This document shows, piece by piece, positions 3,447 through 64,000 of a stretch of DNA of 64,000 bases; positions within the stretch are counted from its first letter, which is position 1; each line of letters starts with the position of its first letter. The DNA comes from Flaccisagitta enflata. Taxonomy: Eukaryota. The position numbers and the translations under genes are program-made. Below the pieces are notes generated by a model, which saw nothing but the letters and a program-made list of their open reading frames with translations, ran no database searches and was not told the origin of the DNA. Location: contig OZ231126.1 in assembly GCA_965153355.1 (NCBI GenBank), positions 28,086,001-28,150,000 on the forward strand, given 5' to 3'.

Positions 3447-4732
3447 CCATCTTGCTCAAAAATATCGTGTCACCTTTATGCCCAATTTGTGACCAAACAA
3501 CTGTAAAAAACACATTGAAATCAGTGACCATTAGAAAGAGCAAGAAAAAATCTTCAAAATGCTACCAAGCAGAGCTCAGTAGCTCGATTATTTCAGATTT
3601 TAGAGCTAAACAGGTCGCCCAAGGGCAATATGTGGTCAGCGATACCCGTTGCCCTGCTTTGAGTGATTGTGAATTGGAGGGAGGGGGAAGCAGGGCAGCG
3701 GCCCCGAAGAGGACGAAGTCCTGTAGAACACAGGGGGACTTTCGTTCGTCCTGCCTGAGAAAGAGGATGAGATGCTATAGAGGGCTGACCAAAGGCCTTC
3801 AAGAGCCTAAACTGAGGTCTAAGAAGGTTGATATAAGGCCTAAGAATGCCAATTGGAAGCTTGAGAGGGCTGACTTGAGGCTTGGGAGAGCTGGATCAAA
3901 GCTTAAAATCAGACTGATTTGAAGCCTGAGAGCAATAAATTGAGGGTTAGATTGCTGATTTGAAGCCTGAGAGGCCTACTTTGAGGCCTGAGAGGCCAGG
4001 TTTGAGGCCTGAGAATTTAGATTTGAGGTCTGAGAGGCCTAATTAGAGGCTTGAGAGGCCAGATTTGAGGCCTGAGAGGTTGAATTTGAGGCTTGAGAGG
4101 CAAAATTTGAGGCCTGAGAGGCGAGATTTGAGGCCTGAGAGGCCAGATTTGAGGCCTGAGAGGCCAGATTTGAGGCCTGAGGGGCCTGAGGGGGGGGGAC
4201 GCACGGACAAACGAACAGACGGACGGACGGACGAACGAAAGTCCCCCTGTGTTCTACAGGACTTCGTCCCCTTCGGGGCCGCTGCCCAAAAAGTAAAAAC
4301 GTTCATGTCTATAAAGAGCAAAAAATATGCAAAAAATGAGGAGAAGAACATTTACCTGTTCATTTTTACTTTTTCTATGCTTATCATTGTAAAATCATAT
4401 AAAAATTGGTGACCAATGTATAGAGCTTTGAAAGATATGTCAAATGCCGCCAAGCAGATTTTTCTAGTACAAACTATTTGAATTTTATTTCAAAATGAAT
4501 ATACATGGGTAAGAAAGTGATGAAAAAAAAACTGCTGGAAAGTTTGAAGAACCGGTTCTACAAAATTGTATATAAATCCTTCATCTATAGCTTCCCAATT
4601 GAATACAAATGGTATATGGTACCATAAGAGCTTATAGTAAATATTTTTGCAGAAATATATATCTTTTTATCAGAAATAACAACAATAAACAATAATCTTG
4701 TTTTACTGAGACGATATTTTTGAGCAAGATGG
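3447..4732. mobile_element. Tc1/mariner-type MITE with TA target duplication, inserted in a 14-bp tandem repeat
   Basis: TIRs ccatcttgctcaaaaatatcgt / acgatatttttgagcaagatgg are flanked by TA on both sides. The aaaagacatctagt repeat to the left resumes to the right. Confidence 0.85.
3609..4292 (-). mobile_element. HINE/DINE-1-like element, family A, nested in the MITE
   Basis: Sub-terminal IRs gggcagcggcccc / ggggccgctgccc, GTCY microsatellite, internal 21-bp array (tttgaggcctgagaggccaga), ends in T/A runs, no TSD. Confidence 0.8.
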
Positions 4733-43603: not shown

Positions 43604-44221
43604 GTAGATGCTGTGTCAGCAGTAATTGCGACTTATAGAAAGAACCCTCTCTGTCGCCATTTTTCTTTGTTCATTAGATTTAAAGCCCATGAAGATTTAC
43701 TGAACAAAAGGGAACAAGTAGCTCGGAGTTACAATGTCGTCGCGGTCGAGAGGGGGGGGGGGGCAGTGGCAGAAATGCGCGCTTCAAACTTTTCGACTAG
43801 ATCATCACGGACCAACGGACGCACCAACAGACGGAGTTATGCCGTTGATTACATGTGCTCAAATTATGTTCTGTAGGACAATCCCTTCAGAGCCACTGGC
43901 ATAGCTGCCCTCTGGGTTCACGTTCGTAGAAGCAGGATGTGGGTGTCGCTGACCACATATATGGCTCATATATATGTCTACTCGACATTGATTCTTGCGC
44001 TGTCTCCGCAATCTCCATCCATGTATCTGGTCCACTATCTTCGTCAGTCAAAATCAACGTCCTTCCTTCTCAAATATAAATGTGGCGATGTCTTGGCCTC
44101 TCTGCGCAGTCATCTTCCTCATTGATAATCTTTTCTTCTTTGCTAATAACTCTCTCTATCTTTAGGTTGGTGAGTTCTTGTCTGTCGGCAACAGTTCTTT
44201 TAACAACATCCAACAACTTTT

Positions 44222-44261
<40 letters not shown>

Positions 44262-44350
44262 TTTCTTTCTTTCTTTTTTTTTCTTTCCTTTCTTTCTTTT
44301 TTCTGTTTTCTTCCTCTCTTTTTCTTTTTCTTTATTTCACTTCTTTCCTC

Positions 44351-44420
<70 letters not shown>

Positions 44421-44451
44421 TTTCTTTTTTTCTTTCTTTCGTTCTTTTTTT

Positions 44452-44564
<113 letters not shown>

Positions 44565-44818
44565 CAGAGAGAGACAGAGAGCAAAGGCGCTCAAGATAAA
44601 GAAAATGGAGTCACATTTGCTGTAAACAGTGTACATGTTTTTCTTACTCGCGTGCCCGCATCTCCTTACTGTATCTGTCGGTCCGCCTCTTCGTCGGTCA
44701 AAATTGACATGTCCTCTCATGGACGTTTTAGCTAGTTTTTACACTACCCAAAACGGCTAGTAATAGCCGTGTCTTCGGCCTCTTTTTTGATCATCTTCCT
44801 GTATGTCTTCTTTTTTCT

Positions 44819-44866
<48 letters not shown>

Positions 44867-44870
44867 TCCT

Positions 44871-44937
<67 letters not shown>

Positions 44938-45064
44938 ATCTTTCTCTCATTCTTTCTTTCTTTCTTTTTTTCCTCCTTTCTTTCTTGCTTTCTTTCTTTC
45001 TTTCTTTCTTTCTTTTTTTCTTTTTTCTTCCTCTCTTTCTTTTTTCTTTCTTTCTTTCTTTCTC

Positions 45065-45104
<40 letters not shown>

Positions 45105-45196
45105 TCCTTCCTTCCTTCCTTCCTTCCTTCCTTCCTTCCTTCCTTCCTTCCTTCCTTCTTTCTTTCTTTCTTAACTTGTTTGTTTGTTTGTTTGTT

Positions 45197-45260
<64 letters not shown>

Positions 45261-45285
45261 TTTTTCTTTCTTTCGTTCTTTTTTT

Positions 45286-45377
<92 letters not shown>

Positions 45378-45473
45378 AAAGAGGGAGAGAGACAGAGAGA
45401 GACAGAGAGACAGAGAGACAGAGAGACAGAGGTGGTCACCACTTACCAGAGACAATAATTTCTCAATTATAAG

Positions 45474-46121
45474 GTTTTGGAAGACACACTCCGAATCGTG
45501 CACGTGGAAACCAACGGCGAAAAAAGAAGAAAAGGTGTTTTCCGCGCCCGAATTTCGTCGTCAACAAAGGACCACGACCAGCCTAACCCAAAGCCAAAGC
45601 CACAGCCACAGCCACAGCCACAGCCACAGCCAAAGCCAAAGCCAAAGCCAAATCTCAAAAAATATGGTAACTATTGGTTGGTTACCTTCGCCGACAAAGC
45701 CGTGACCGCCGGCTTGAAAACTTTCCTCAGCGATCCAGACAACAAACAATCGCTGGGTCATTTCGTTCCATGGGTGATCCAAAAAATGCGGGCTCACGGA
45801 TTGCCCATAACAAATGGCATGTTATTCAAGTCGTTCCCGCATCCAAAAGCGATGAAGGAAGGGCAAAAGAGGATCAAGAAATCGGTCATGCACGCCGTTT
45901 TGAAACTGATGGTTGAAAGAGGACTGATTGAAAAAAGGCCACCAATTATAGGGAAAAAGATGATGAGAGAAACACAGTTGATCCACTGGTGGAGATGCAG
46001 GCAGTTGTTGATACTCGACAGTCTCCGCAGATTAGTGATGGAGAGGATGAAGATGACGATGAATAAGAATGAAGGAAGATGTAATAAGAAGAAGATGAGG
46101 ATGAGGAGAAGAGAGATATGA
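45474..46121 (+). pseudogene. Truncated, frameshifted duplicate of the 58982-59809 exon
   Basis: Near-identical protein up to ...GLIEKRPPI, then one A is missing in gggaaaaagat (~45955) with further indels. The upstream coding exon is absent from this arm. The frameshifts could be sequencing errors. Confidence 0.6.
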
Positions 46122-46294
46122 GAGAGGAAGAGAATAAGAGAAGGAGAAGAAGAGGATGAAGAAGCAATAAGAAGAAGGAAGAAGAAGAAGATGAAGAATA
46201 GCTATTAATAAAGAAGAAGAAGAAGAAGAAGTAGTTATTGAAGAAATAATAAAGGAGAAAGAAAAGGAAAGAAACATTAAGAAGAAAAGAAAGA

Positions 46295-47870
46295 GGAAGG
46301 CCGAAGGAAGGAATGGAAGGAAGGAAGAAACAATGGAAGGTGAGGAAGATTGGAAGGTCGAAGGAAGGAATGGAAGAAAGGAATGAAGAATGGAAGGTGA
46401 GGAAGATTGGAAGGCCGAAGGAAGGAATGGAAGAAAGGAATGAACAATGGAAGGTGAGGAAGATTGGAAGGCCGAAGGAAGGAATGGAAGAAAGGAATGA
46501 ACAATGGAAGGTGAGGAAGATTGGAAGGCTGAAGCAAGGAATGGAAGAAAGAAATGAACAATGAAGGTGAGTGTGAAGATTGGAAGGTCAGAACAGACGA
46601 ATGAAGAAAGGAAACGAAAACAATTTAATAAGAGGAAGATCAGAAGAATGAAGGAATGGAAGAAAGGAATGAACAATGGAAGGTGAGGAAGATTGGAAGG
46701 CCGAAGCAAGGAATGGAAGAAAGGAATGAACAATGGAAGGTGAGGAAGATTGGAAGGCCGAAGGAAGGAATGGAAGAAAGGAATAAAGAATGGAAGGTGA
46801 GGAAGATTAGAAGGTTGAAGAAAGGAATGGAAGAAAGGAATGAAGATTGGAAGGTGAGGAAGATTGGAAGGCCGAAAGAAGGAATGGAAGAAAGGAATAA
46901 AGAATGGAAGGTGAGGAAGATTGGAAGGCCGAAGGAAGGAATGGAAGAAAGGAATGAACAATGGAAGGTGAGGAAGATTGGAAGGCCGAAGGAAGGAACT
47001 AGAAGAAAGCACTGAACAATGAATGATAAGATCAATGGATAATAACGTGGAAATAAATGAACAAGACCGAAGGTGAGAAAGACTGCCATTGGCTAATGAA
47101 ATTAAAGAAAGAAAATAAAGAATGGAATATGAGGAAGATTGAAGGTCAAGGAATGATGAAGAAAGGAACAAAGAATGGAAGGTGATAAAGACTGGATAGC
47201 TGCAAAGAAGGAATGAAGAAAGGAATAGAATGAAGGAGGAAGATTGGGAGGTCAATGGAAGGAATGAAGGAAGGAAGGAAAGAATTAACATGAGGAAGAT
47301 TGAAGGCAGTAATAAAGAATGGAAGAAAGGAAAATGAATTAAATTTGAAGGTGGAGGAAGATTGGAAGGTCATTAACAGCCCAACAGAACAAAGAACGGA
47401 AGCAGAGGAATATTTCATGAATGAAATGAAGAAATGAATGAACAATGGAATAAGAGGAAGATTAGATCAATGAAAGAATTTGAACAGAAGGAAATGAACA
47501 ATGGAAGGAGGATGATTGGACATCAGATAATGGAATGTAATATAATATAAGAATGAAGGTGAGGAAGATCAGGCCAGCGAAGGAACAGGTTAGTTAACAC
47601 ACATGAGGAAGATCGAATACTCACGAATGAATAATATGAGATCGAACAATGGAAGGTGAGAAAGATTTGGAATACTCATTAGAAGGAAACGGAAGAACGG
47701 AGCAAGAACGGGAAGGTGAGGAAGACTGGAAATGTCATAGAAGGAATCAAGAAAATGAACAAAGAACTAATAAGAGGAAGACTGGAAGGTCAATAGGAAG
47801 GAATGGAAGAAAGGAATGAACAATGGAAGATGAGGAAGATTGGAAGGCCGAAGGAATGGAAGAAAGAAAG
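46295..47870 (+). repeat. 57-bp purine-rich minisatellite (left-arm copy, centre highly degenerate)
   Basis: tggaaggtgaggaagattggaaggccgaaggaaggaatggaagaaaggaatgaacaa units. Confidence 0.9.
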
Positions 47871-52425: not shown

Positions 52426-52499
52426 CATTTTTTTCCTGACTCCCTCATGAGTTTGAACACTAACTGCTAAATCCAAATGGTAGCTTTCAGCCTTTTCAT

Positions 52500-52561
<62 letters not shown>

Positions 52562-52562
<1 letters not shown>

Positions 52563-53465
52563 TTACACAAAACAACGCACCGACAAAATACAGCTCCTCT
52601 ACCTACATAAGATGCTAACCAAGCCAGACTATGACTGGCAAAAAGCCACTCTTATGACAACGCTGATGACTCTAAAAGTAGGCTGGTATAAAAAGATTAT
52701 CACCACTTTAGAGGAGTATTCGCTTGATACTGACTTTGAGACCATAAAAAATTACCACCCTAACGAATGGAAGTACAAAGTCACAAAATGCGTCGAAGAA
52801 AAGAACAAAGAAAGGCTCACGCAAGAGCTACACAAAACAGAAGATGGTCAGCAAACCGCAAAAACTAAAACTGCGACAATTGTTGACAAATTACTCGATC
52901 CTCTGTACGTACGAAAACCGGTTCCTGAACTACTCTACCTCAACAAAAATGAAAGTAGAACTCTCATAATGGCACGTTATGGGATGTTAGAGTGCGGCAG
53001 AAATCGTGGTGGAAGCATGAAGAAAATTTGCGAATCATGTAATGTACTTGATGATGAAGAGCACAGACTCAATGTTTGTACAAAATGGTTGAACCATAAA
53101 GACGAGCCTGTAAAAGTACCCTTTGAACAAATTTTTACAAATGATCTAGATTCACTGAAAGAGATTTTACATAGAATCGCCTCCATCTGGGACACGAAAA
53201 ATGGTCGTGGTTCCATGATAGAGAATGACTATCCATTCTAACTAGTCTTCTCTTTCTTCTCGCAATACAATGGAAAATGTATCAATTAGTAAATGCATTA
53301 CATGAGAAAACTTTTCTTTAGCATTGAACAACAAACTTAGAATTTGTCACTGTAATTGTTTCACTGAATATTGATATTTATTGGTAATTTCTGTACTGCT
53401 TCAAATACCCATGTTAAAGGATCATACAGAGTAATTAACTAATCTAACTTAACTAATCTTCTTCT
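52562..53465 (+). mobile_element. 5'-truncated non-LTR retrotransposon (ORF2 C-terminus, 3'UTR, simple-repeat tail)
   Basis: Open frame to 53241 with RTLIMARYGML and a CCHC knuckle CESCNVLDDEEHRLNVC typical of post-RT LINE regions; tail taactaatctaacttaactaatcttcttc. Absent from the paralogous (CT)n site at ~39505. Confidence 0.85.
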
Positions 53466-55845: not shown

Positions 55846-56221
55846 CTAAGGTTTGTTAACCTTGTTTCTTTGTCCTTTTCTTTCTTTTTCTTCTTCATCT
55901 TCTTCTCCCTCTTCATCTTCGTCTTCCTCCGCTTCATCTTCATCTGTCTCTTCATCTTCTCCTTCATCTTCTCCTTCATCTTCTTCTTCTTCCCCATCTT
56001 TTTCTTCTTCTTCTTCTTCTTCTTCTTCTTCTTCTTCTTCTTCTTCTTCTTCTTCTTCTTCTTCTTCTTCTCTTTCTTCTTTCTTTTTTTTCTTCCCCAT
56101 CTTTTTTTTCTTCCAGACTTTCTTCCTTTCTTCCATTTTCTTCAAAGTTAGTCCCTTCATCCTTCCATTCTTTCTTTCTTCCATTCCTTCCTTCGGCCTT
56201 CCAATCTTCCTCATCTTCCAT
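55846..56221 (-). CDS. Possible terminal acidic coding segment of the TcmP-like gene
   Basis: Reads ...EKDGEEEEDEGEDEGEDEETDEDEAEEDEDEEGEEDEEEKERKGQRNKVNKP*, followed by AATAAA at ~55827 and ~55800 (-). The frame across the GAA run is ambiguous and no clear acceptor is visible. Confidence 0.3.
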
Positions 56222-58985
56222 TGTTCATTCCTTTCTTCCATTCCTTCCTTCGGCCTTCCAATCTTCCTCACCTTCCATTCTTTATTCCTTTCTTCCATTC
56301 CTTCCTTCAGCCTTCCAATCTTCCTCACCTTCCATTATTTTAGTCCTTTTTTCCATTCCTTCCTTCGACCTTCTAATCTTCCTCACCTTCCATTCTTTTT
56401 TTCTTTCTTCCATTCCTTCCTTCGGCCTTCCAATCTTCCTCACCTTCCATTCTTCATTCCTTTTTGGGCAGCGGCCCCAAAGGGCCGATGTCCTGTAGGA
56501 CACAGGGGTGAATTTCCTCACGTCTGTCCGTCCGTACGTCCGTCTGTCCGTACATCCCCCCCTGAACCGTCTCAATTCTCAAATTTCCATTGAATAACAT
56601 GGGAAAATGCAAAATGTAAACTTCCCATTGAATAACATGGGAAAATGCAAAATGCAAACTTCCCATTGAATAACATGGGAAAATGACAACTTGCAAACTT
56701 CCCATTGAATAACATGGGAAAATGACAACTTGCAAACTTCCCTTTGAATAACATGGAAAATTTACAAACAATAGAAAAATGCCCATTTTCCATCGAATAA
56801 CATAGAAAATTAACAAAAAATGAAAAAAAAAGCAAAATAGCAATTGGATAACACAGAAAATTGACAAGAAAATGAAATTCCCATTGAACATGGAAAATTG
56901 ACAATAAATTGTAGAAAATACATAGCTGCCATTGAATATCATGGAAAATTGCCTCTAAGGCCTGAAATATGCCTTCTCAGGACGTAAGGAAATGCACCCC
57001 TGTGTCCTACAGGACATCGGCCCTTTGGGGCCGCTGCCCTGCTCTCACTCCACCTCTTTAGTTGATCACTCCAAGCAGGGCATCGGGTACCGCTGACCAT
57101 GTGCAATCCTTGGATGACTTGTTTCCATTCCTTTCTTCAGCCTTCCAACCTTCCTCACCTTCCATTGTTCATTCCTTTCTTCCATTCCTTCCTTCGGCCT
57201 TCCAATCTTCCTCACCTTCCATTCTTTATTCCTTTCTTCCATTCCTTCCTTCGGCCTTCCAATCTTCCTCACCTTCCATTCTTTATTCCTTTCTTCCATT
57301 CCTTCCTTCGGCCTTCCAATCTTCCTCACCTTCCATTGTTCATTCCTTTCTTCCATTTGTCGCTTCGGCCTTCCAATCTTCCTCCCCTTCCATTCTTTAT
57401 TCCTTTCTTCCATTCCTTCCTTCGGCCTTCCAATCTTCCTCACCTTCCATTGTTCATTCCTTTCTTCCCTTCCTTCCTTCGGCCTTCCAATCTTCCTCAC
57501 CTTCCATTGTTCATTCCTTTCTTCCCTTCCTTCCTTCGGCCTTCCAATCTTCCTCCCCTTCCATTCTTTATTCCTTTCTTCCATTCCTTCCTTCGGCCTT
57601 CCAATCTTCCTCACCTTCCATTGTTCATTCCTTTCTTCCATTCTTTCCTTCGGCCTTCCAATCTTCCTCACCTTCCATTGTTCATTCCTTTCTTCCATTC
57701 CTTCCTTCGGCCTTCCAATCTTCCTCACCTTCCATTCTTTATTCCTTTCTTCCATTCCTTCCTTTGGCCTTCCATTCTTCCTCACCTTCCATTGTTCATT
57801 CCTTTCTTCCATTCCTTGCTTCTGCCTTCCAATCTTTCTCACCTTCCATTCTTTATTCCTTTTTTCCATTCCTTCCTTCGGCCTTCCAATCTTCCTCACC
57901 TTCCATTCTTTATTTCTTTCTTCCATTCCTTGCTTTGGCCTTCCAATCTTCCTCACCTTCCATTGTTCATTCCTTTCTTCCATTCCTTCCTTCGGCCTTC
58001 CAATCTTCCTCACCTTCCATTGTTCATTCCTTTCTTCCATTCCTTCCTTCGGCCTTCCAATCTTCCTCACCTTCCATTCTTTATTCCTTTCTTCCATTCC
58101 TTCCTTCGGCCTTCCAATCTTCCTCACCTTCCATTGTTCATTCCTTTCTTCCATTCCTTCCTTCGGCCTTCCAATCTTCCTCACCTTCCATTGTTCATTC
58201 CTTTCTTTCATTCCTTCCTTCGGCCTTCCAATCTTCCTCACCTTCGATTCTTTATTCCTTTCTGCCATTCCTTCTTTCGGCCTTCCAATCTTCCTCACCT
58301 TCCATTGTTCATTCCTTTCTTCCATTCCTTCCTTTGGCCTTCCAATCTTCCTCACCTTCCATTGTTCATTCCTTTCTTCCATTCCTTCCTTCGGCCTTCC
58401 AATCTTTCTCACCTTCCATTCTTTATTCCTTTCTGCCATTCCTTCTTTCGGCCTTCTAATCTTCCTCACCTTCCATTCTTTATTCCTTTCTTCCATTCCT
58501 TGCTTCGGCCTTCCAATCTTCCTCACCTCCATTGTTTATTCCATTCTTCCATTCCTTCCTTCGGCCTTCCAATCTTTCTCACCTTCCATTGTTCATTCCT
58601 TTCTTCCATTCCTTCCTTCGGCCTTCCAATCTTCCTCACCTTCCATTGTTCATTCCTTTCTTCCATTCCTTCCTTCGGCCTTCCAATCTTCCTCACCTTC
58701 CATTGTTCATTCCTTTCTTCCATTCCTTCCTTCAACCTTCCAATCTTCCTCACCTTCCATTGTTCATTCCTTTCTGCCATTCCTTCTTTCGGCCTTCTAA
58801 TCTTCCTCACCTTCCATTGTTCATTCCTTTCTTCCATTCCTTCCTTCGGCCTTCCAATCTTCCTCACCTTCCATTGTTCATTCCTTTCTTCCATTCCTTG
58901 CTTCATCCTTCCAATCTTCCTCACCTTCCATTCTTTATTCCTTTCTTCCATTCCTTCCTTCGGCCTTCCAATCTTCCTCACCTTC
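56170..58985 (-). repeat. 57-bp minisatellite, about 37 units, interrupted by a HINE
   Basis: Homogeneous units; one minus-strand frame reads WKVRKIGRPKEGMEERNEQ (19 aa). Confidence 0.95.
56461..57123 (+). mobile_element. HINE family A with a ~38-bp internal array
   Basis: tttttgggcagcggcccc, GTCY, (cccattgaataacatgggaaaatg...)n, ggggccgctgccc, end ggatgacttgtt; inserted at TT within a 57-bp unit. Confidence 0.88.
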
Positions 58986-59809
58986 ATTCTTTTTTCCATT
59001 CTCTCTTTCTTTCTTCCACACGTTCTGTCTTTCTCTTTCTTTTCTTCTGTCTTTCTTTCCTTTTTTCTTTCTCCTTTTCTTTCTTCTCCTTCTTCTTCTT
59101 CTTCTTCTTCTTCTTCTTCTTCTTCTTCTTCTTCTTCTTCTTCTCCTTCCTCTTCTTCTCCTTCCTCTTCTATCTCCTCTTCTCCTCCTCCTCCTCCATC
59201 TTCTTCTTCTTCCTCTTCCCCTTCTTCTTCTTCATCGTCATCTTCCTCCTCTCCATCACTAATCTGCGGAGACTGTCGAGTATCGGCGCTACTTGCCATC
59301 TCACACCAGTGGATCAACATGTTTCTCTCATCATCTTTTTTCCCCGTAATTGGTGGCCTTTTTTCAATCAGTCCTCTTTCAACCATCAGTTTCAAAACAG
59401 CGTGCATGACCGATTTCTTGATCCTCTTTTGCCCTTCCTTCATCGCTTTTGGACGCGGGAACGACTTGAATAACATGCCATTTGTTATGGGCAATCCGTG
59501 AGCCTGCATTTTTTGGATCACCCATGGGACGAAATGACCCAGCGATTGTTTGTTGTCTGGATCGCTGAGGAAAGTTTTCAAGCCGGCGGTCACGGCTGCG
59601 TCGGCGAAGGTAACCAACCAATAGTTACCATATTTTTTGAGATTTGGCTTTGGCTTTGGCTGTGGCTGTGGTTGTGGCTGTGGCTGTGGCTTTGGGTTTG
59701 GCTGGTCGTGGTCCTTTGTTGAAGACGAAATTCGGGCGCGGAAAACACCTTTTCTTCTTTTTTCGCCGTTGGTTTCCACGTGCACGATTCGGAGTGTGTC
59801 TTCCAAAAC
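58982..59809 (-). CDS. Coding exon of a TcmP-like gene: end of winged helix 1, PQ/PK insert, second winged-helix-like region, acidic tail
   Basis: Phase-0 acceptor tttctcaattatAAG|GTT TTG GAA; reads VLEDTLRIVHVETNGEKRRKGVF...YGNYWLVTFAD...KKSVMHAVLKLMVERGLIEK...; first strong donor AAG|gtgagg at 58981. The 3' boundary is uncertain. Confidence 0.7.
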
Positions 59810-59883
59810 CTTATAATTGAGAAATTATTGTCACTGGTGAGTGGTGACCACCTCTGTCTCTCTGTCTCTCTCTGTCTCTCTCC

Positions 59884-60067
<184 letters not shown>

Positions 60068-60148
60068 AAAAAGAACGAAAGAAAGAAAAAAAAAGGAAGA
60101 AAGAAAGGAAGAAAGAAAGAAACAAACAAACAAACAAACAAGTTAACA

Positions 60149-60292
<144 letters not shown>

Positions 60293-60296
60293 AGGA

Positions 60297-60399
<103 letters not shown>

Positions 60400-60404
60400 G
60401 AAAA

Positions 60405-60479
<75 letters not shown>

Positions 60480-60488
60480 GAAGAAAAA

Positions 60489-60572
<84 letters not shown>

Positions 60573-60852
60573 AAAAAAAAGAAAGAAAGAAAGGAAGAAG
60601 AAAAAAAAAGAAAAACAGGAAGATGATCAAAAAAGAGGCCGAAGACACGGCTATTACTAGCCGTTTTGGGAAGTGTAAAAACTAGCTAAAACGTCCATGA
60701 GAGGACATGTCAATTTTGACCGACGAAGAGGCGGACCGACAGATACAGTAAGGAGATGCGGGCACGCGAGTAAGAAAAACATGTACACTGTTTACAGCAA
60801 ATGTGACTCCATTTTCTTTATCTTGAGCGCCTTTGCTCTCTGTCTCTCTCTA

Positions 60853-60927
<75 letters not shown>

Positions 60928-61005
60928 AGAAAGAAAGAGAAAGAAAGAAAAGAGAGAAGAAGAAAGAAACAAAGAAACAAAGAAAGAAAGAAAGAAAAAG
61001 AAAAA

Positions 61006-61080
<75 letters not shown>

Positions 61081-61167
61081 AGAAGAAAAGAAAAAAAGAA
61101 AAAAGAAAAAAGAAGAAAAAAGGAAAACAAGAAATAAAAAAAGAAAAAAAGAAAGAAAGGAAGAAAA

Positions 61168-61227
<60 letters not shown>

Positions 61228-61229
61228 AT

Positions 61230-61263
<34 letters not shown>

Positions 61264-61279
61264 AAGATAGAAAGAAAGT

Positions 61280-61331
<52 letters not shown>

Positions 61332-61486
61332 AGAAAAAAAAAGACATACAGGAAGATGATCAAAAAGGAGGCCGAAGACACGGCTATTACTAGCCGTTTT
61401 GGGTAGTGTAGAAAGGACAAGTCAATTTTGACCGACGAAGAGGCGGACCGACAGATACAGTGAGGAGACGCGGGCACGCGAGTAAG

Positions 61487-62187
61487 AACAGGTCGCCCAA
61501 GGGCAATATGTGGTCATCGATACCCGTTGCCCTGCTTTGCATGAATGTGAATTTGTGAGGGGAAGCAGGGCAGCGGCCCCGAAGAGGACGAAGTCCTGAA
61601 GAATACAGGGGGAATTTCGTTCGTCCTGCCTGACAACATTGATGAGGTGCTATAGTGCACTGATTGAAGGCCTTAAAGAGTCTGAAGACTTTCCCAAGGC
61701 TTAAATGGCAATCAGGTCTGATTCGAAGCCTGATAGCGCTACTTTGAGGCCTGTGAGGCCTAATTTGAGGTCTGAGAGGGCTAATTTGAGGCCTGAGAGG
61801 GCTAATTTGAGGCTTGAGAGGCCAAGTTCAAGGGCTTACAGGCCAGATGTGAGACCTGACAGGCCAGATTTGGGACCTGAGAGACCCAATTTGAGGTCTG
61901 AGGGGCAGGATTTGTGGCCTGAGGGGAAGGATTTGAGGCCTGAGAGCCTGGATTTGAGGCCTGAGAGGCCGGATTGCAGGCCTGAGAGGCCGGATTTCAG
62001 GCCTGAGAGGCCAGATTTGAGACCTGAGAGGCCAGATTTGAGACCTGAGAGGCTGGATTTCGGGTCTGAGGGGACTGATGGGGATGGGGACGGATGAACG
62101 GACGAACGAACGAACGGACGAACGGATGAACGAAAGTCCCCCTGTGTTCTACAGGACTTCGTCCCCTTCGAGGCCGCTGCCCAAAAA
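61487..62187 (-). mobile_element. HINE family A in the intron, about 20 nt from the donor
   Basis: Same termini and 21-bp array as 3609-4292. The flanks rejoin as catgtt|cttactcgcg, as in the HINE-free duplicates at 44634-44651 and 60766-60783. Confidence 0.88.
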
Positions 62188-62207
62188 CATGACACCATTC
62201 TCTTTAC

Positions 62208-62423
62208 CTTGAGCGCCTTTGCGTGATACACAAAAGGAGTCTCCAGCAGAATCCTCTTCTTCACCTGGCCCAACGGTAACGTGAGGCCGCGCAGAAGCCG
62301 AAAGATGGCGTTGCCTTCGTACTCGTCGTCAGTTTTCCGGATGTAATCGATCTTCGGCCCATTCTTGCGATGAAACGCGGAGAAACAGAGGTCGTCCGGT
62401 AGGTCGGTGACGCACATCATCGC
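62208..62423 (-). CDS. Internal coding exon (72 codons) of a TcmP-like gene
   Basis: Acceptor ttctaccatatacccttAG|GCG and donor CTCAAG|gtaaag, both phase 0. High-complexity peptide AMMCVTDLPDDLCFSAF...RKTDDEYEGNAIFRLLRGLTLPLGQVKKRILLETPFVYHAKALK joins in frame to the 59809 exon. Confidence 0.75.
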
Positions 62424-62739
62424 CTAAGGGTATATGGTAGAAGTCGCAAAAGTAAAGGCACGGTATCTGGATGCTAACGCCAGGCCCAAGGTGAATGACT
62501 AAGCCCGGGATGGTGTCCAGGCTGCTCTCATGGTTAGTGCCGATTAATTTCCGCCAAAAAACAAATAATCGTTAGAGCGCTTTTGGAGAAAAGTTGAGTT
62601 TTTTCCCGCAAAAAAACATTTTTTGTCCAAAAATGGCAAAAATTAAGAAAAAATAATCATTTTTTCCACTCTTTTGTACTCAAGTAGTACCTTGGCTTAA
62701 ACGTTGTAGTCACATAGTGTAGGGGAAAACATACATATG

Positions 62740-63895
62740 GATAACGGGGGGTTTAGGACCCCTAGGGGCCCTCTAAGGGGCCCCCAAAGGCTCAAAAAGG
62801 CCAAAATGGCTCAATAATACTTCTTGTTCTGCCATGATGTACTCCAGTGGTATACCGACCTATCAGTCATTCCCATCCAGAGTGCTGGGAGATGTGCAGA
62901 TGGATAACGGGGGTCAAGGTCCCCTAGGGGCCCTCTAATGGGCCCCCAGGGACTCAAAATAGCCAAAATGGCTCAAAAATGCTTCTTGTTCTGCCCTGTT
63001 GTACCCCAAAGGAGCACCAACCTATCTGTCAGTTCCATCTACAGTGGTGGCAGATGTGCAGATGGATGACGGGGGTTTGAGACCCTTACAGGCCCTCTAG
63101 GGGGCCCCGAGGGGCTCAAAAAGGCCAACATGGCTCAGAAATGCTTCTTGTTCTGCCCTGTTGTACCTAAGTAGTACACCGACCTATCAGTCATTCCCAT
63201 CTAGAGTGGTGGAAGATATGCAAATGGATAACAGGGGTTAAGGACCCCTAGGGGCTCCCTAAAGGGCCCCCAAGGACGCAAAATGGCTTACATGGCTCAA
63301 AAATTCTTCTTGTTCTGCCATGATGTACTCCAGTGGTATACTGACCTATCAGTCATTTCCATCTAGAAAGGCGGGAGATGTGCAGATGGAAAATAGGGGG
63401 TTTGGGACACCTAGGGGCCTCCAAGGGGCCCCCAAGGACTCAAAATGGCCAAAATGGCTCAATGCTTCTTGTTCTGCCATGATGTACTCCAGTGGTATAC
63501 TGACCTATCAGTCATTCCAATCTGGAGTGGTGGGAGATGTGCAGATGGTTGATGGGGGTTAAGGACCCCTAGGGGGCCCTCTAAGGAGCCCCCAGGGACT
63601 TAAAATGGCCAAAATAGTTCAAATATGCTTCTTGCTCTGCCATGATGTACTTCAGTGGTTTACCAACCTATCAGTCATTCACATCTGGAGTGGTGGGAGA
63701 TGTGCATATGGATAACGGGGGTTAAGGACCCCTAGGGGCCCTCTAAGGGACCCCGGGGACTCAAAATGACCAAAACGGCTCAAAAACGCTTCTTGTTCTG
63801 CCATGATGTACTCCAGCGGTTCACCAACCTATCCTTGGAGATGTGCAAATAGATAACCGGGGTTTGAGACCCTTAGGTGCCTCCTCAATAACCCC
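62740..63895. repeat. ~162-bp satellite, about 7 units, probably internal to a non-autonomous element starting near 62545
   Basis: The cttcttgttctgcc motif recurs near 62821, 62983, 63145, 63307, 63466, 63629 and 63790. Confidence 0.92.
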
Positions 63896-63896
63896 C

Positions 63897-64000
63897 AGGG
63901 ACAATATGTGGTCAGCGATATCCGTTGCCCTGCTTTGCATGATTGTGAATTGTAGTGAGCGGATGCAGGGCAGCGGCTCCAAAGGGGATGAAGTCCTGTA
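63897..64000 (-). mobile_element. HINE family A end, running off the window
   Basis: caatatgtggtcagcgatatccgttgccctgcttt ... cagggcagcggc. Confidence 0.75.

What the first reader, a model, noticed from the sequence alone, without database searches (positions are those of the whole stretch)
58982..62544. Hidden spliced gene resembling bacterial three-Cys-motif partner (TcmP) methyltransferase/winged-helix proteins
Seen: two phase-0 exons with canonical splice sites join across a 2.4-kb repeat-filled intron to give ...AMMCVTDLPDDLCFSAF...DDEYEGNAIFRLLRGLTLPLGQVKKRILLETPFVYHAKALK|VLEDTLRIVHVETNGEKRRKGVF...GNYWLVTF. The ORF track shows them only as two unrelated ORFs. Inference from recalled motifs: the order TNH..L...AM...FS, then TP(F/Y)....AL..LE...I......RRKGxF...VTF, matches the C-terminal half of TcmP (TIGR04474-type) proteins and their terminal winged helix. 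Established: bacterial TcmP genes usually neighbour DUF5131/phage Gp37-Gp68 radical-SAM-like genes and are suspected nucleic-acid-modifying enzymes. An intron-containing animal version would be a domesticated prokaryotic modification or conflict enzyme of unknown function. The catalytic N-terminal exons are not in this window.
Basis: partly seen in the sequence, partly recalled or inferred. Interest (0 to 1): 0.85.

Follow-up and report, generated by a model that had tools for sequence, protein, structure and literature searches.

The report
Split gene with TcmP-type winged helix
This is a real two-exon gene for a small protein with two DNA-binding-type winged-helix domains, the first related to the tail domain of a bacterial methyltransferase (TcmP), but it has no enzyme part and none is missing.

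Summary
Two minus-strand exons (62420-62208 and 59809 onward) join through GT/AG sites across a 2,398-base repeat-filled intron. Environmental relatives of 212-237 aa carry both halves contiguously across that junction.

The family matches no Pfam, NCBIfam, PHROG or PADLOC model, TIGR04474 (TcmP) included. I fetched real TcmP genes from bacteria. The family's first winged helix is homologous to the TcmP C-terminal 'GMT-like wHTH' (PF22560): hhalign probability 92.5-94.4%, E 5e-7 to 9e-8. Eight control wHTH families scored at most 16.7, against 45.5.

The TcmP methyltransferase core is absent. Complete relatives start a few residues before the conserved N-terminal motif, and no longer relatives were found. 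Profile similarity covers only the last ~60 TcmP columns. So this is not the C-terminal half of a TcmP enzyme with lost N-terminal exons.

It is a small, basic, non-enzymatic tandem winged-helix protein, probably nucleic-acid binding. The window copy runs past the normal stop into microsatellites. A second, frameshifted exon-2 copy lies at 45474-46042. No RNA evidence was obtained.

The parts
62208..62420 (-). Exon 1 coding part: ATG ATG start, conserved N-terminal peptide (..DLPDDLCFSAF..), then helices 1-2 and the start of helix 3 of winged helix 1. 71 codons, ending ...ALK.
   Evidence: 72% identity to P0031 and 60% to P0002. Alignments A1-A3.
62424..62426 (-). In-frame TAG directly upstream of the codon before the ATG. 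Its AG (62425-62424) could also be a splice acceptor for a short or non-coding 5' exon.
   Evidence: Sequence. P0002 has 5 further residues upstream, and P0031 shows a read-through typical of an acceptor at this point. Inference only.
59810..62207 (-). Phase-0 intron of 2,398 bases, GT...AG, filled with (CA)n, (AAAG)n, a 21-base minisatellite and a dispersed repeat. It cuts the recognition helix of winged helix 1 between ALK and VLED.
   Evidence: Relatives are contiguous across it.
59606..59809 (-). Exon 2, first part: rest of winged helix 1 (helix 3, strand, basic wing GEKRRKGVF, wing insertion, strand ..WLVTF). Together with 62318-62208 this is the GMT-like wHTH homologue.
   Evidence: hhalign A2 vs A4: probability 92.5%, E 4.9e-7. 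Python hhalign 94.4%. AF2 model of P0002.
59645..59704 (-). In-frame (CAGCCA)n microsatellite coding a P/Q/K run inside the wing insertion. It is absent from relatives and 12 bases longer in the second copy.
59291..59605 (-). Exon 2, second part: linker helix and winged helix 2 (MarR-like). Relatives end here (window ...LIHWCEMAS).
58523..59290 (-). Run-on of the open frame past the point where relatives stop. It passes through (GAA)n and a 57-base minisatellite to the first stop. It is either a low-complexity acidic/basic tail or a sign of decay.
45474..46042 (+). Second, inverted copy of exon 2. The alignment shows only about a dozen base substitutions outside the microsatellite. It has three one-base indels near the 3' end, and no exon 1 copy is in the window.
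44220..46922 (.). Arm of an inverted duplication. The partner arm is 58401-61209. The arms cover exon 2, part of the intron and the minisatellite.
   Evidence: blastn self-comparison: 88.6-90.5% identity over 2,176 and 1,070 bases.

Best explanation
The locus is a complete, or nearly complete, two-exon gene on the minus strand. The ATG is at 62420, exon 1 runs to 62208, the intron is 62207-59810, and exon 2 starts at 59809.

It encodes a small basic protein whose conserved part is 247 residues. That part has three sections:
- a conserved but probably disordered N-terminal peptide;
- a first winged-helix domain (wH1), homologous to the GMT-like wHTH (PF22560) that ends bacterial TcmP methyltransferases;
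- a second, MarR-like winged helix (wH2).

There is no methyltransferase domain and no sign that one is missing. The protein belongs to a rare, unnamed family seen otherwise only on short environmental contigs.

Most likely mechanism (inferred, not shown): it binds nucleic acid without catalysing anything. It would use the recognition helix that begins at the conserved T-P and the basic wing (GEKRRKG) of wH1, together with wH2. This is the targeting module of a TcmP-type enzyme, kept without the enzyme.

Shown: gene structure, family membership, domain homology, absence of the TcmP core.
Inferred: nucleic-acid binding, bacterial origin of wH1, and whether this particular copy is expressed.
For: Gene structure. 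Relatives span the junction and begin at the same N-terminus.

Fold: AF2 model of P0002 with alignment A2 has pLDDT 71.4 and pTM 0.70. Residues 1-32 have low confidence. Two H-S-H-H-S-S units occupy 41-130 and 150-231.

wH1 = GMT-like wHTH:
- hhalign probability 94.4%, E 9.2e-8, score 45.5 over 57 columns, against 19 TcmP C-termini. The hhalign tool gave 92.5%, E 4.9e-7.
- wH1 against eight control wHTH families scored 8.9-16.7.
- GMT19 against the same controls scored at most 23.7. 200 column shuffles gave mean 8.9 and maximum 14.1. The reversed profile gave 10.6.
- HMMER gave 26.0 bits to L275, against 2.2 bits for the best of 111 decoys.
- BLASTP of P0018 against L275: 33% identity over 81 residues, E 6e-11.
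- The spliced window product scores 12.8 bits on the GMT19 HMM across the junction. Exon 2 alone scores 6.0 and exon 1 alone -1.3.
- The protein atlas, an independent weak lead, listed PF22560-bearing clusters.

wH2: MarR 62.5%, IclR 41.5%, GntR 34.6%.

Charge: pI 9.83 for the window's conserved part. 8 of the 9 relatives computed have pI 8.3-10.2.

All eight nearly invariant family positions are kept in the window copy.
Against: - No RNA evidence for this locus. The four runs laid covered only a 40-base repeat core, with zero depth on exon 1.
- The open frame does not stop where relatives stop. It runs on through (GAA)n and a minisatellite, so the copy may be decaying.
- Pfam's own PF22560 model gives no hit at E<=10 on either exon or on 8 relatives.
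- Against 11 Pseudomonadota TcmP C-termini alone, hhalign probability is only 20.5%.
- The window's exons taken singly show nothing significant against L275 by BLASTP.
- Only about 6 sequences cover the N-terminal half of wH1, so the family profile is thin.
- Nucleic-acid binding rests on fold and charge alone. Winged helices also mediate protein contacts, as in the cullin and ESCRT-II rows.
- The source organisms of the relatives are unknown.
Confidence: 0.7

Rival explanations
1. These are the last exons of an intron-containing TcmP methyltransferase, and its catalytic N-terminal exons lie beyond position 64000.
For: The wH1 homology to the TcmP C-terminal domain is real. An AG at 62425-62424 could accept an upstream exon. 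P0002 has 5 extra N-terminal residues, and P0031 looks read through from an acceptor.
Against: - TIGR04474 gives no hit at E<=10 on the exons or on 8 relatives. The same model finds TcmP in 26 of 401 bacterial genomes and in 10 of 10 test ORFs.
- The three relatives that run from an N-terminal Met to the family's C-terminal end (P0002, P0006, P0018) are 212-237 aa and sit on contigs of 1.2-3.1 kb.
- None of the real hits in the unrestricted scan exceeds 237 aa. 'Longer' searches found none.
- Family against full-length TcmP aligns only on columns 343-405 of 421.
- TcmP ends after the shared domain, whereas this protein continues into wH2.
- No TcmP core or DUF5131 signal appears in the six frames of the window.
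Confidence: 0.04
2. The window copy is a non-functional relic. It would be a recently duplicated, decaying gene fragment in a repeat-rich region. The family is real, but this locus makes no working protein.
For: - The stop at the family's normal C-terminus is missing, and the frame runs about 250 codons into microsatellite and minisatellite.
- A microsatellite sits in-frame in the wing.
- A partial inverted duplicate has three frameshifting indels and no exon 1.
- No reads fell on exon 1, though the runs may not be from the same organism.
- Substitutions between the two exon-2 copies are about 5 synonymous and 5-6 non-synonymous codons (read). That is too few to show constraint.
Against: 247 conserved codons have no stop or frameshift relative to the relatives. 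The splice sites are canonical, and the ATG has a purine at -3. All eight nearly invariant positions are kept. Copy 1 keeps the ancestral frame at the C-terminus, where copy 2 does not.
Confidence: 0.25
3. The likeness to TcmP is convergence between two ordinary winged helices. The protein would be a lineage-specific eukaryotic tandem-wH protein with no bacterial link.
For: - Pfam's PF22560 model is silent on the family.
- Similarity to the Pseudomonadota forms is weak (20.5%).
- The aligned region is short, 57-61 columns.
- Foldseek and VIA give only generic wH matches.
Against: - The wH1-GMT score of 45.5 stands well above wH1 against 8 controls (at most 16.7), GMT against the controls (at most 23.7), the shuffles (at most 14.1) and wH2 against GMT (22.3).
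- HMMER and BLASTP hits to L275 are significant on their own.
- Shared details include T-P at the start of helix 3, the basic wing, a wing insertion and a terminal V/I-x-F strand.
Confidence: 0.07
4. The gene rides on a mobile element or an integrated virus rather than being a host gene.
For: It has a patchy, rare distribution: about 10 clusters in 1.84 billion representatives. A partial second copy lies within 13 kb, inside an inverted duplication. The neighbourhood is repeat-dense, and no other recognisable gene was found in the ORFs tested.
Against: No transposase, integrase or capsid signal was found in the ORFs tested. There were no relatives in IMG/VR viral contigs and no BFVD structural match. 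The duplication arms contain only part of the gene. The copy number in the genome could not be checked.
Confidence: 0.12

Closest known systems
TcmP, three-Cys-motif partner protein (NCBIfam TIGR04474), bacterial and prophage
   Same: The C-terminal GMT-like winged helix of long-form TcmP is homologous to this protein's first winged helix. Shared features are the T-P at the start of the recognition helix, the basic G-x-K/R-R-K-G-x-F wing, a wing insertion in some forms, and a closing V/I-x-F strand.
   Different: TcmP is 370-470 aa. It has a class-I SAM methyltransferase core: invariant DxFAGxG and DPYG columns, and Foldseek matches to RlmJ, Trm1 and histamine methyltransferase at E about 1e-6 to 1e-7. 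It sits next to a DUF5131 gene (10 of 10).

The window protein has no such core and no DUF5131 neighbour in the window. It has a second winged helix that TcmP lacks, and it has a spliceosomal-type intron.
Pfam PF22560, GMT-like wHTH domain
   Same: Same domain by profile-profile comparison (probability 92.5-94.4%). Same H-S-H-H-S-S topology (TcmP model).
   Different: Pfam's HMM does not reach the family at E<=10. In my bacterial samples the domain occurred in TcmP. Of 11 Pseudomonadota hits, 10 lay directly downstream of the TIGR04474 match in the same frame and 1 was on a split contig. In two other phyla, 10 of 10 tested were TcmP. Here the domain stands in a new architecture.
MarR / IclR / GntR-type bacterial wHTH regulators
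   Different: All scores are below family thresholds (Pfam MarR_2 17.2 bits against a cut-off of 27). There are no MarR dimerisation helices. The likeness is of fold type only.
Eukaryotic tandem winged-helix proteins (RPC34, TFIIIC tauB, ESCRT-II subunits, cullin C-terminus, STK19, MAGE)
   Same: The overall layout of two consecutive winged helices in a protein of about 200-250 aa. They appear as weak full-length Foldseek rows and as VIA rows.
   Different: No Foldseek match at E<=0.001. TM-scores on the model are 0.21-0.27. There is no sequence relation.

Membership tests
TcmP (NCBIfam TIGR04474, tcm_partner) | Match to the 263-position TIGR04474 core model above 53 bits | tested here: not met
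   No hit at E<=10 for either exon or for 8 relatives. Positive controls: the model finds 26 of 401 Pseudomonadota genomes and 10 of 10 ORFs from two other phyla.
TcmP (NCBIfam TIGR04474, tcm_partner) | Class-I SAM methyltransferase core (DxFAGxG and DPYG columns) | tested here: not met
   The core motifs are invariant in 29 TcmP sequences, and the fold is confirmed. Family proteins are 212-237 aa and start just before wH1. A3 against A5 aligns only TcmP columns 343-405 of 421. No core signal appears in the six frames of the window.
TcmP (NCBIfam TIGR04474, tcm_partner) | C-terminal GMT-like winged helix | tested here: met
   hhalign 94.4% and 92.5%. HMMER 26 bits to L275. BLASTP E 6e-11. Controls.
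TcmP (NCBIfam TIGR04474, tcm_partner) | Adjacent DUF5131 (PF07505) partner gene | tested here: not met
   10 of 10 bacterial TcmP loci tested have DUF5131 directly upstream. An HMM built from those finds nothing in the window (best E 0.67 in this small search). The rest of the genome is not held.
Pfam PF22560 GMT-like wHTH | Pfam HMM hit above the gathering score (27 bits) | tested here: not met
   No PF22560 row at E<=10 for 2 exons and 8 relatives. My own HMM of 19 domains gives the spliced product 12.8 bits and P0002 13.9 bits, against 8.2 bits for the best decoy.
Pfam PF22560 GMT-like wHTH | Profile-profile homology to bona fide members, above other wHTH families | tested here: met
   Score 45.5-47.0, against at most 16.7 for eight control families and at most 14.1 for 200 shuffles.
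Pfam PF22560 GMT-like wHTH | Winged-helix topology (H-S-H-H-S-S) | tested here: met
   AF2 model of P0002: H41-52, E56-58, H59-69, H75-84, E88-92, E127-130. The same order appears in the TcmP model at 297-368.
MarR-type wHTH (second domain) | Pfam MarR/MarR_2 hit above the cut-off | tested here: inconclusive
   MarR_2 E 0.0059, 17.2 bits against a cut-off of 27. hhalign to 22 MarR domains gives probability 62.5%.

The most novel reading that the evidence does not exclude
A eukaryotic lineage acquired the nucleic-acid-targeting winged helix of a bacterial or prophage TcmP-DUF5131 modification system. It then lost or never took the methyltransferase, fused the domain to a second winged helix, and gained introns. 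The protein now serves as a non-catalytic binder, for example a reader or regulator that recognises the same kind of nucleic-acid feature the bacterial enzyme targets.

In the domain tree the five family sequences form one clade (100/100) next to an actinomycetotal TcmP (97/86), among bacterial sequences from three phyla. The tree is unrooted, so direction is inferred only from the domain's wide bacterial spread and its rarity here.
Probability: 0.3. Interest if true: 0.65.

Novelty: new variant of a known kind. Interest (0 to 1): 0.48.

Why it matters
TcmP and its DUF5131 partner form an uncharacterised two-gene system of bacteria and prophages. DUF5131 is listed among radical-SAM subgroups (PMC9477430, passage read). 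The target of the system is unknown.

A stand-alone, intron-bearing relative of the TcmP targeting domain offers a small, soluble handle for asking what that domain binds. It is also a possible case of a prokaryotic conflict-system module reused in a eukaryote.

The finding also corrects the more exciting reading: there is no hidden animal TcmP enzyme here.

Practically, the gene is missing from the family libraries searched and carried no name in any source. This report gives it a gene model and a domain assignment.

Tried and rejected
- **Whole-genome search:** no genome is held for this window.
- **Earlier scan notes:** nothing by place, sequence or words.
- **RNA evidence:** the run search returned only small shares (0.10-0.12), probably microsatellite words. 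I laid X24, X7, X8 and X1 on 62140-62720. 1,059 reads of X24 and 4 contigs of X7 covered only 62140-62199, a dispersed repeat core at 90-99% likeness. Depth was zero on exon 1 in all four runs. The runs are not shown to be from the window's organism, so this says nothing about expression.
- **Related loci:** none in JGI metagenome contigs, IMG/VR viral contigs or GTDB genome contigs, after two calls failed for lack of a conserved stretch.
- **Word-index searches for longer relatives:** none. This is weak evidence by the tool's own note.
- **Other libraries:** PHROGs and PADLOC gave nothing meaningful. PDB by sequence gave nothing for the family, for a TcmP or for the GMT domain. Rfam gave no match in the window.
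- **Structure searches:** Foldseek against PDB and BFVD gave no match at E<=0.001 for the family model. The wide VIA search gave generic winged-helix rows on residues 131-237 only.
- **Atlas:** scores of 0.77-0.83 are below its lead threshold.
- **N-terminal peptide against full-length TcmP:** no profile similarity, score 7.9.
- **Window exons singly against L275:** not significant.
- **Other window ORFs for context:** eight tested, no Pfam hit.
- **Literature:** TcmP terms gave two relevant passing mentions among 639 hits, most of them unrelated acronyms, with 15 listed. 'GMT-wHTH/PF22560' gave 0 papers. DUF5131 terms gave 4 papers. I saw no paper on a eukaryotic relative in these searches. 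Supplements are closed and were not seen.
- **Rows dropped before counts:** L274 (genome flagged unpublished), L276 (GntR-like false positive at 27.4 bits) and L291 (broken) were left out of the GMT alignment. In addition, P0031, the relatives known only from exon 2, and short-form TcmPs were left out of the tree.


Full report
**1. The observation**

Reading the sequence gives the following:
- Exon 1 ends ...GCG CTC AAG at 62208, followed by GTAAAG (donor GT at 62207-62206).
- The acceptor is ...ATTATAAG, with AG at 59811-59810.
- Exon 2 opens GTT TTG GAA GAC (VLED) at 59809.
- The join is phase 0, and the intron is 2,398 bases.

Tandem Repeats Finder and a self-BLAST show the intron filled with (CA)n, (AAAG)n, a 21-base minisatellite and copies of a dispersed repeat.

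**2. Is the join real?**

A scan of 1.84 billion representative proteins with exon 2 (186 aa) found 21 hits at E<=0.001. By inspection and by the matched ranges, eight are true relatives: P0001, P0002, P0003, P0005, P0006, P0007, P0015 and P0018. P0004 matches only the query's C-terminal end (161-184), and P0008, P0013 and P0017 are unrelated by sequence. Most of the other rows fall mainly on the P/Q/K run; I did not fetch them. A profile search added P0030 and P0031.

P0002 (237 aa), P0006 (221), P0018 (212), P0030 and P0031 contain exon 1 and exon 2 sequence contiguously, reading ...TPFVYHxRALK|VLED....

Exon 1 alone is 72% identical to P0031 (E 5e-38) and 60% identical to P0002 (E 3e-31).

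Five clusters are known only from the exon-2 part: P0001, P0003, P0005, P0007 and P0015. P0015 has unrelated, pyrimidine-codon-rich residues ending ..FFVQ directly before VLED. That is what a gene caller produces when it reads through an intron on genomic DNA. It suggests, but does not prove, a conserved intron position.

All relatives come from ENA or Logan contigs of 0.5-3.7 kb and carry no names.

**3. The N-terminus**

The frame of exon 1 is closed by TAG at 62426-62424, directly before GCG ATG ATG. P0006 and P0018 begin M-x-x-(D/E)-LCFSAF. P0002 begins 16 residues before that motif.

So exon 1 carries the N-terminus, and the ATG at 62420 is the likely start. A short 5' exon joining at the AG of 62425-62424 cannot be excluded.

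No true relative exceeds 237 aa in the length-unrestricted scan. Two searches restricted to longer proteins found none (weak evidence by the tool's own note).

**4. Family libraries and fold**

Neither the exons nor eight relatives match any Pfam, NCBIfam, PHROG or PADLOC family at useful levels. TIGR04474 gives no row at E<=10. The only hints were MarR_2 (E 0.0059) and F-93_WHD (E 0.074), both on the C-terminal part.

AlphaFold2 on P0002 with the 21-row alignment A2 gave pLDDT 71.4 and pTM 0.70. It shows a low-confidence N-terminus (1-32) and two winged-helix units, the first with a long insertion in its wing.

The conserved part of the window protein has pI 9.83, and most relatives are basic.

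**5. Testing the TcmP idea directly**

The TIGR04474 model might not cover a terminal winged helix, so I fetched real TcmP genes.

Using handles obtained through a 16S pattern, I found:
- TIGR04474 in 26 of 401 Pseudomonadota genomes.
- Long forms (409-436 aa) with Pfam PF22560 'GMT-like wHTH' at the C-terminus: 7 of 8 tested at E<=0.1, and 5 of 8 above the cut-off.
- PF22560 in 11 of 401 of those genomes. Ten hits lay directly downstream of the TIGR04474 match in the same frame, and one was on a separate contig.
- PF22560 in 7 of 401 genomes of the phylum of an Ilumatobacteraceae genome (Actinomycetota). This tally includes one genome flagged unpublished, whose sequence I did not use.
- PF22560 in 15 of 401 genomes of the phylum of a Sediminibacterium genome (Bacteroidota).
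- Ten of ten ORFs tested from these two phyla are TIGR04474 above the cut-off, with PF22560 at the C-terminus.
- Ten of ten upstream neighbours tested are DUF5131.

The 29-sequence TcmP alignment has invariant DxFAGxG and DPYG columns. Reading these as SAM-methyltransferase motifs I and IV is my own knowledge.

The AF2 model of one TcmP (pLDDT 86.5, pTM 0.86) matches SAM-dependent methyltransferases: 312 PDB chains at E<=0.001, with histamine N-methyltransferase, Trm1 and RlmJ on top. The model ends in an H-S-H-H-S-S unit.

**6. The domain comparison**

| Comparison (hhalign) | Probability | Score |
|---|---|---|
| wH1 (P0002 residues 30-132 of A2) vs 11 Pseudomonadota TcmP C-termini | 20.5% | 24.3 |
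| wH1 vs 19 Actinomycetota/Bacteroidota GMT domains (E 9.2e-8, 57 columns) | 94.4% | 45.5 |
| A2 vs A4 with the comparison tool (E 4.9e-7) | 92.5% | 47.0 |
| wH1 vs MarR (22 sequences) | at most 1.3% | 9.4 |
| wH1 vs PadR (3) | at most 1.3% | 10.3 |
| wH1 vs HTH_5 (12) | at most 1.3% | 10.7 |
| wH1 vs IclR (13) | at most 1.3% | 12.1 |
| wH1 vs Rrf2 (13) | at most 1.3% | 8.9 |
| wH1 vs GntR (30) | at most 1.3% | 9.7 |
| wH1 vs HxlR (8) | at most 1.3% | 16.7 |
| wH1 vs FUR (10) | at most 1.3% | 12.8 |
| GMT alignment vs the same eight, best (GntR) | 18% | 23.7 |
| 200 column-shuffled wH1 profiles | - | mean 8.9, SD 1.6, max 14.1 |
| Reversed wH1 profile | - | 10.6 |
| wH2 vs GMT | 11.4% | 22.3 |
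| wH2 vs MarR | 62.5% | 31.2 |

Other methods agree:
- With HMMER, the wH1 profile scores L275 at 26.0 bits, L271 at 12.9 and L277 at 12.4. The best of 111 control segments scores 2.2.
- BLASTP of P0018 against the L275 C-terminus gives 33% identity over 81 residues, E 6e-11. P0030 gives E 2e-8.

The printed alignment shows the shared details: T-P-F/Y at the start of helix 3, a basic wing ending K/R-G-x-F, an insertion after the wing in Bacteroidota forms, and a closing V/I-x-F strand.

For the window itself, the product spliced in a script scores 12.8 bits on my GMT HMM, across residues 52-96 (the junction is at 71/72). Exon 2 alone scores 6.0, exon 1 alone scores -1.3, and the best decoy scores 8.2. 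Singly, the exons show nothing against L275.

**7. Limits of the likeness**

- Family against full-length TcmP aligns only TcmP columns 343-405 of 421 (probability 70%).
- The conserved N-terminal peptide alone scores 7.9.
- HMMs of the TcmP full length and of DUF5131 find nothing in the six frames of the window (best E 0.49 and 0.67 in that small search).
- TcmP ends about 17-37 residues after the PF22560 match (17-32 in 17 of the 19 ORFs kept). The window protein goes on for about 105 conserved residues of wH2.

The protein therefore shares one domain with TcmP and is not a TcmP.

**8. Origin**

A maximum-likelihood tree was built from 35 domain sequences with 116 columns kept. It used 5 family rows including the spliced window product, 19 Actinomycetota/Bacteroidota rows and 11 Pseudomonadota rows. 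The rows left out are listed under Tried and rejected.

The tree puts the family in one clade (100/100) on a long stem (1.76), next to L275 (97/86). The rest of the bacterial diversity lies around it.

The root is arbitrary and the bootstrap had not settled, so direction of transfer is not shown. The domain's presence in three bacterial phyla, always in TcmP, against about ten environmental clusters for this family, makes a bacterial source the simpler reading. This is inference.

No relatives of the family were found in GTDB genomes, IMG/VR or JGI metagenomes by pattern plus tblastn.

**9. State of this copy**

The 247 conserved codons are intact, and all eight nearly invariant family positions are kept.

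Three things argue for caution:
- The frame does not stop where relatives stop (window ...LIHWCEMAS, about 59291). It runs through (GAA)n and a 57-base minisatellite to 58523.
- An in-frame (CAGCCA)n sits in the wing insertion.
- A second exon 2 at 45474-46042 (+) lies in an inverted duplication (58401-61209 against 46922-44220). It differs by about a dozen base substitutions outside the microsatellite and has three one-base indels near its end, as read from the alignment. It has no exon 1 in the window.

The RNA check was uninformative.

**10. Verdict**

The gene structure is confirmed. The TcmP link is real but confined to the terminal winged helix, and the enzyme reading is rejected.

The most likely function is non-catalytic nucleic-acid binding by two winged helices. 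That is inferred from fold, charge and the role such a domain plausibly has at the end of a methyltransferase.

Literature: TcmP appears only as an annotation label in a table of PMC12429752 (passage read) and in PMC12445080 (search listing only). DUF5131 is listed as a radical-SAM subgroup in PMC9477430 (passage read). No paper held 'GMT-wHTH' or 'PF22560'. Supplements were not available.

Noticed in passing
window 44220-46922 and 58401-61209: Inverted duplication of about 2.7-2.8 kb arms, 88.6-90.5% identical by blastn. The two exon-2 copies lie tail to tail about 13 kb apart, and each arm ends in a 57-base minisatellite.
   Followed up: partly
window 57123-58985 (also 46032-47369 and 56174-56465): A 57-base minisatellite (32.7 copies, 93% matches) that stays open in several frames and inflates ORF lengths. 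The gene's open frame runs into it.
   Followed up: partly
window 62737-63833: A 162-base tandem repeat (6.8 copies, 82% matches) directly upstream of the gene's 5' end.
   Followed up: no
window 62101-62187 (also 4206-4292, 3693-3751, 61568-61626, 56461-56544): A dispersed repeat with a conserved core of about 40 bases. The core at 62145-62187 was covered by 1,059 reads of a polyA RNA run (X24, 90-99% alike) and by 4 contigs of a marine RNA run (X7), with unrelated flanks. It looks like a SINE-type core shared across organisms. Part of the same repeat (62190-62222) overlaps the exon 1 donor region and recurs at 60804-60836 and 44581-44613.
   Followed up: partly
window 52471-53241 (+): A 256-aa open frame of normal composition with no Pfam hit at E<=0.01. 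To my eye it resembles the tail of a non-LTR retroelement ORF, but that is recall, not a test.
   Followed up: partly
window 1-64000: No Rfam family at gathering score anywhere in the window. Eight non-repetitive ORFs had no Pfam hit. The window is gene-poor and rich in microsatellites.
   Followed up: yes
bacterial loci L127 (G044), L126 (G382), L122 (G342); also G097: Several bacterial genomes carry two TcmP-type genes. In G044, G382 and G342 they lie side by side, typically a long form with the GMT-like wHTH next to a shorter form without it. In G097 the two hits are about 1.15 Mb apart. Short forms (274-340 aa) lack PF22560 altogether.
   Followed up: no
locus L275 (G598): The TcmP whose C-terminal domain is closest to the eukaryote-type family sits in a 469-aa stop-to-stop frame in which the TIGR04474 match begins at residue 107 (start codon not determined). 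It falls just under Pfam's PF22560 cut-off in hmmscan (25.1 bits, against 28.7 in the genome search).
   Followed up: partly
proteins P0031, P0015, P0007: Environmental relatives diverge from the family consensus at different points: before ITDLP in P0031, before VLED in P0015, and before the basic wing in P0007. This would fit gene calls that read through introns at positions differing between species.
   Followed up: no
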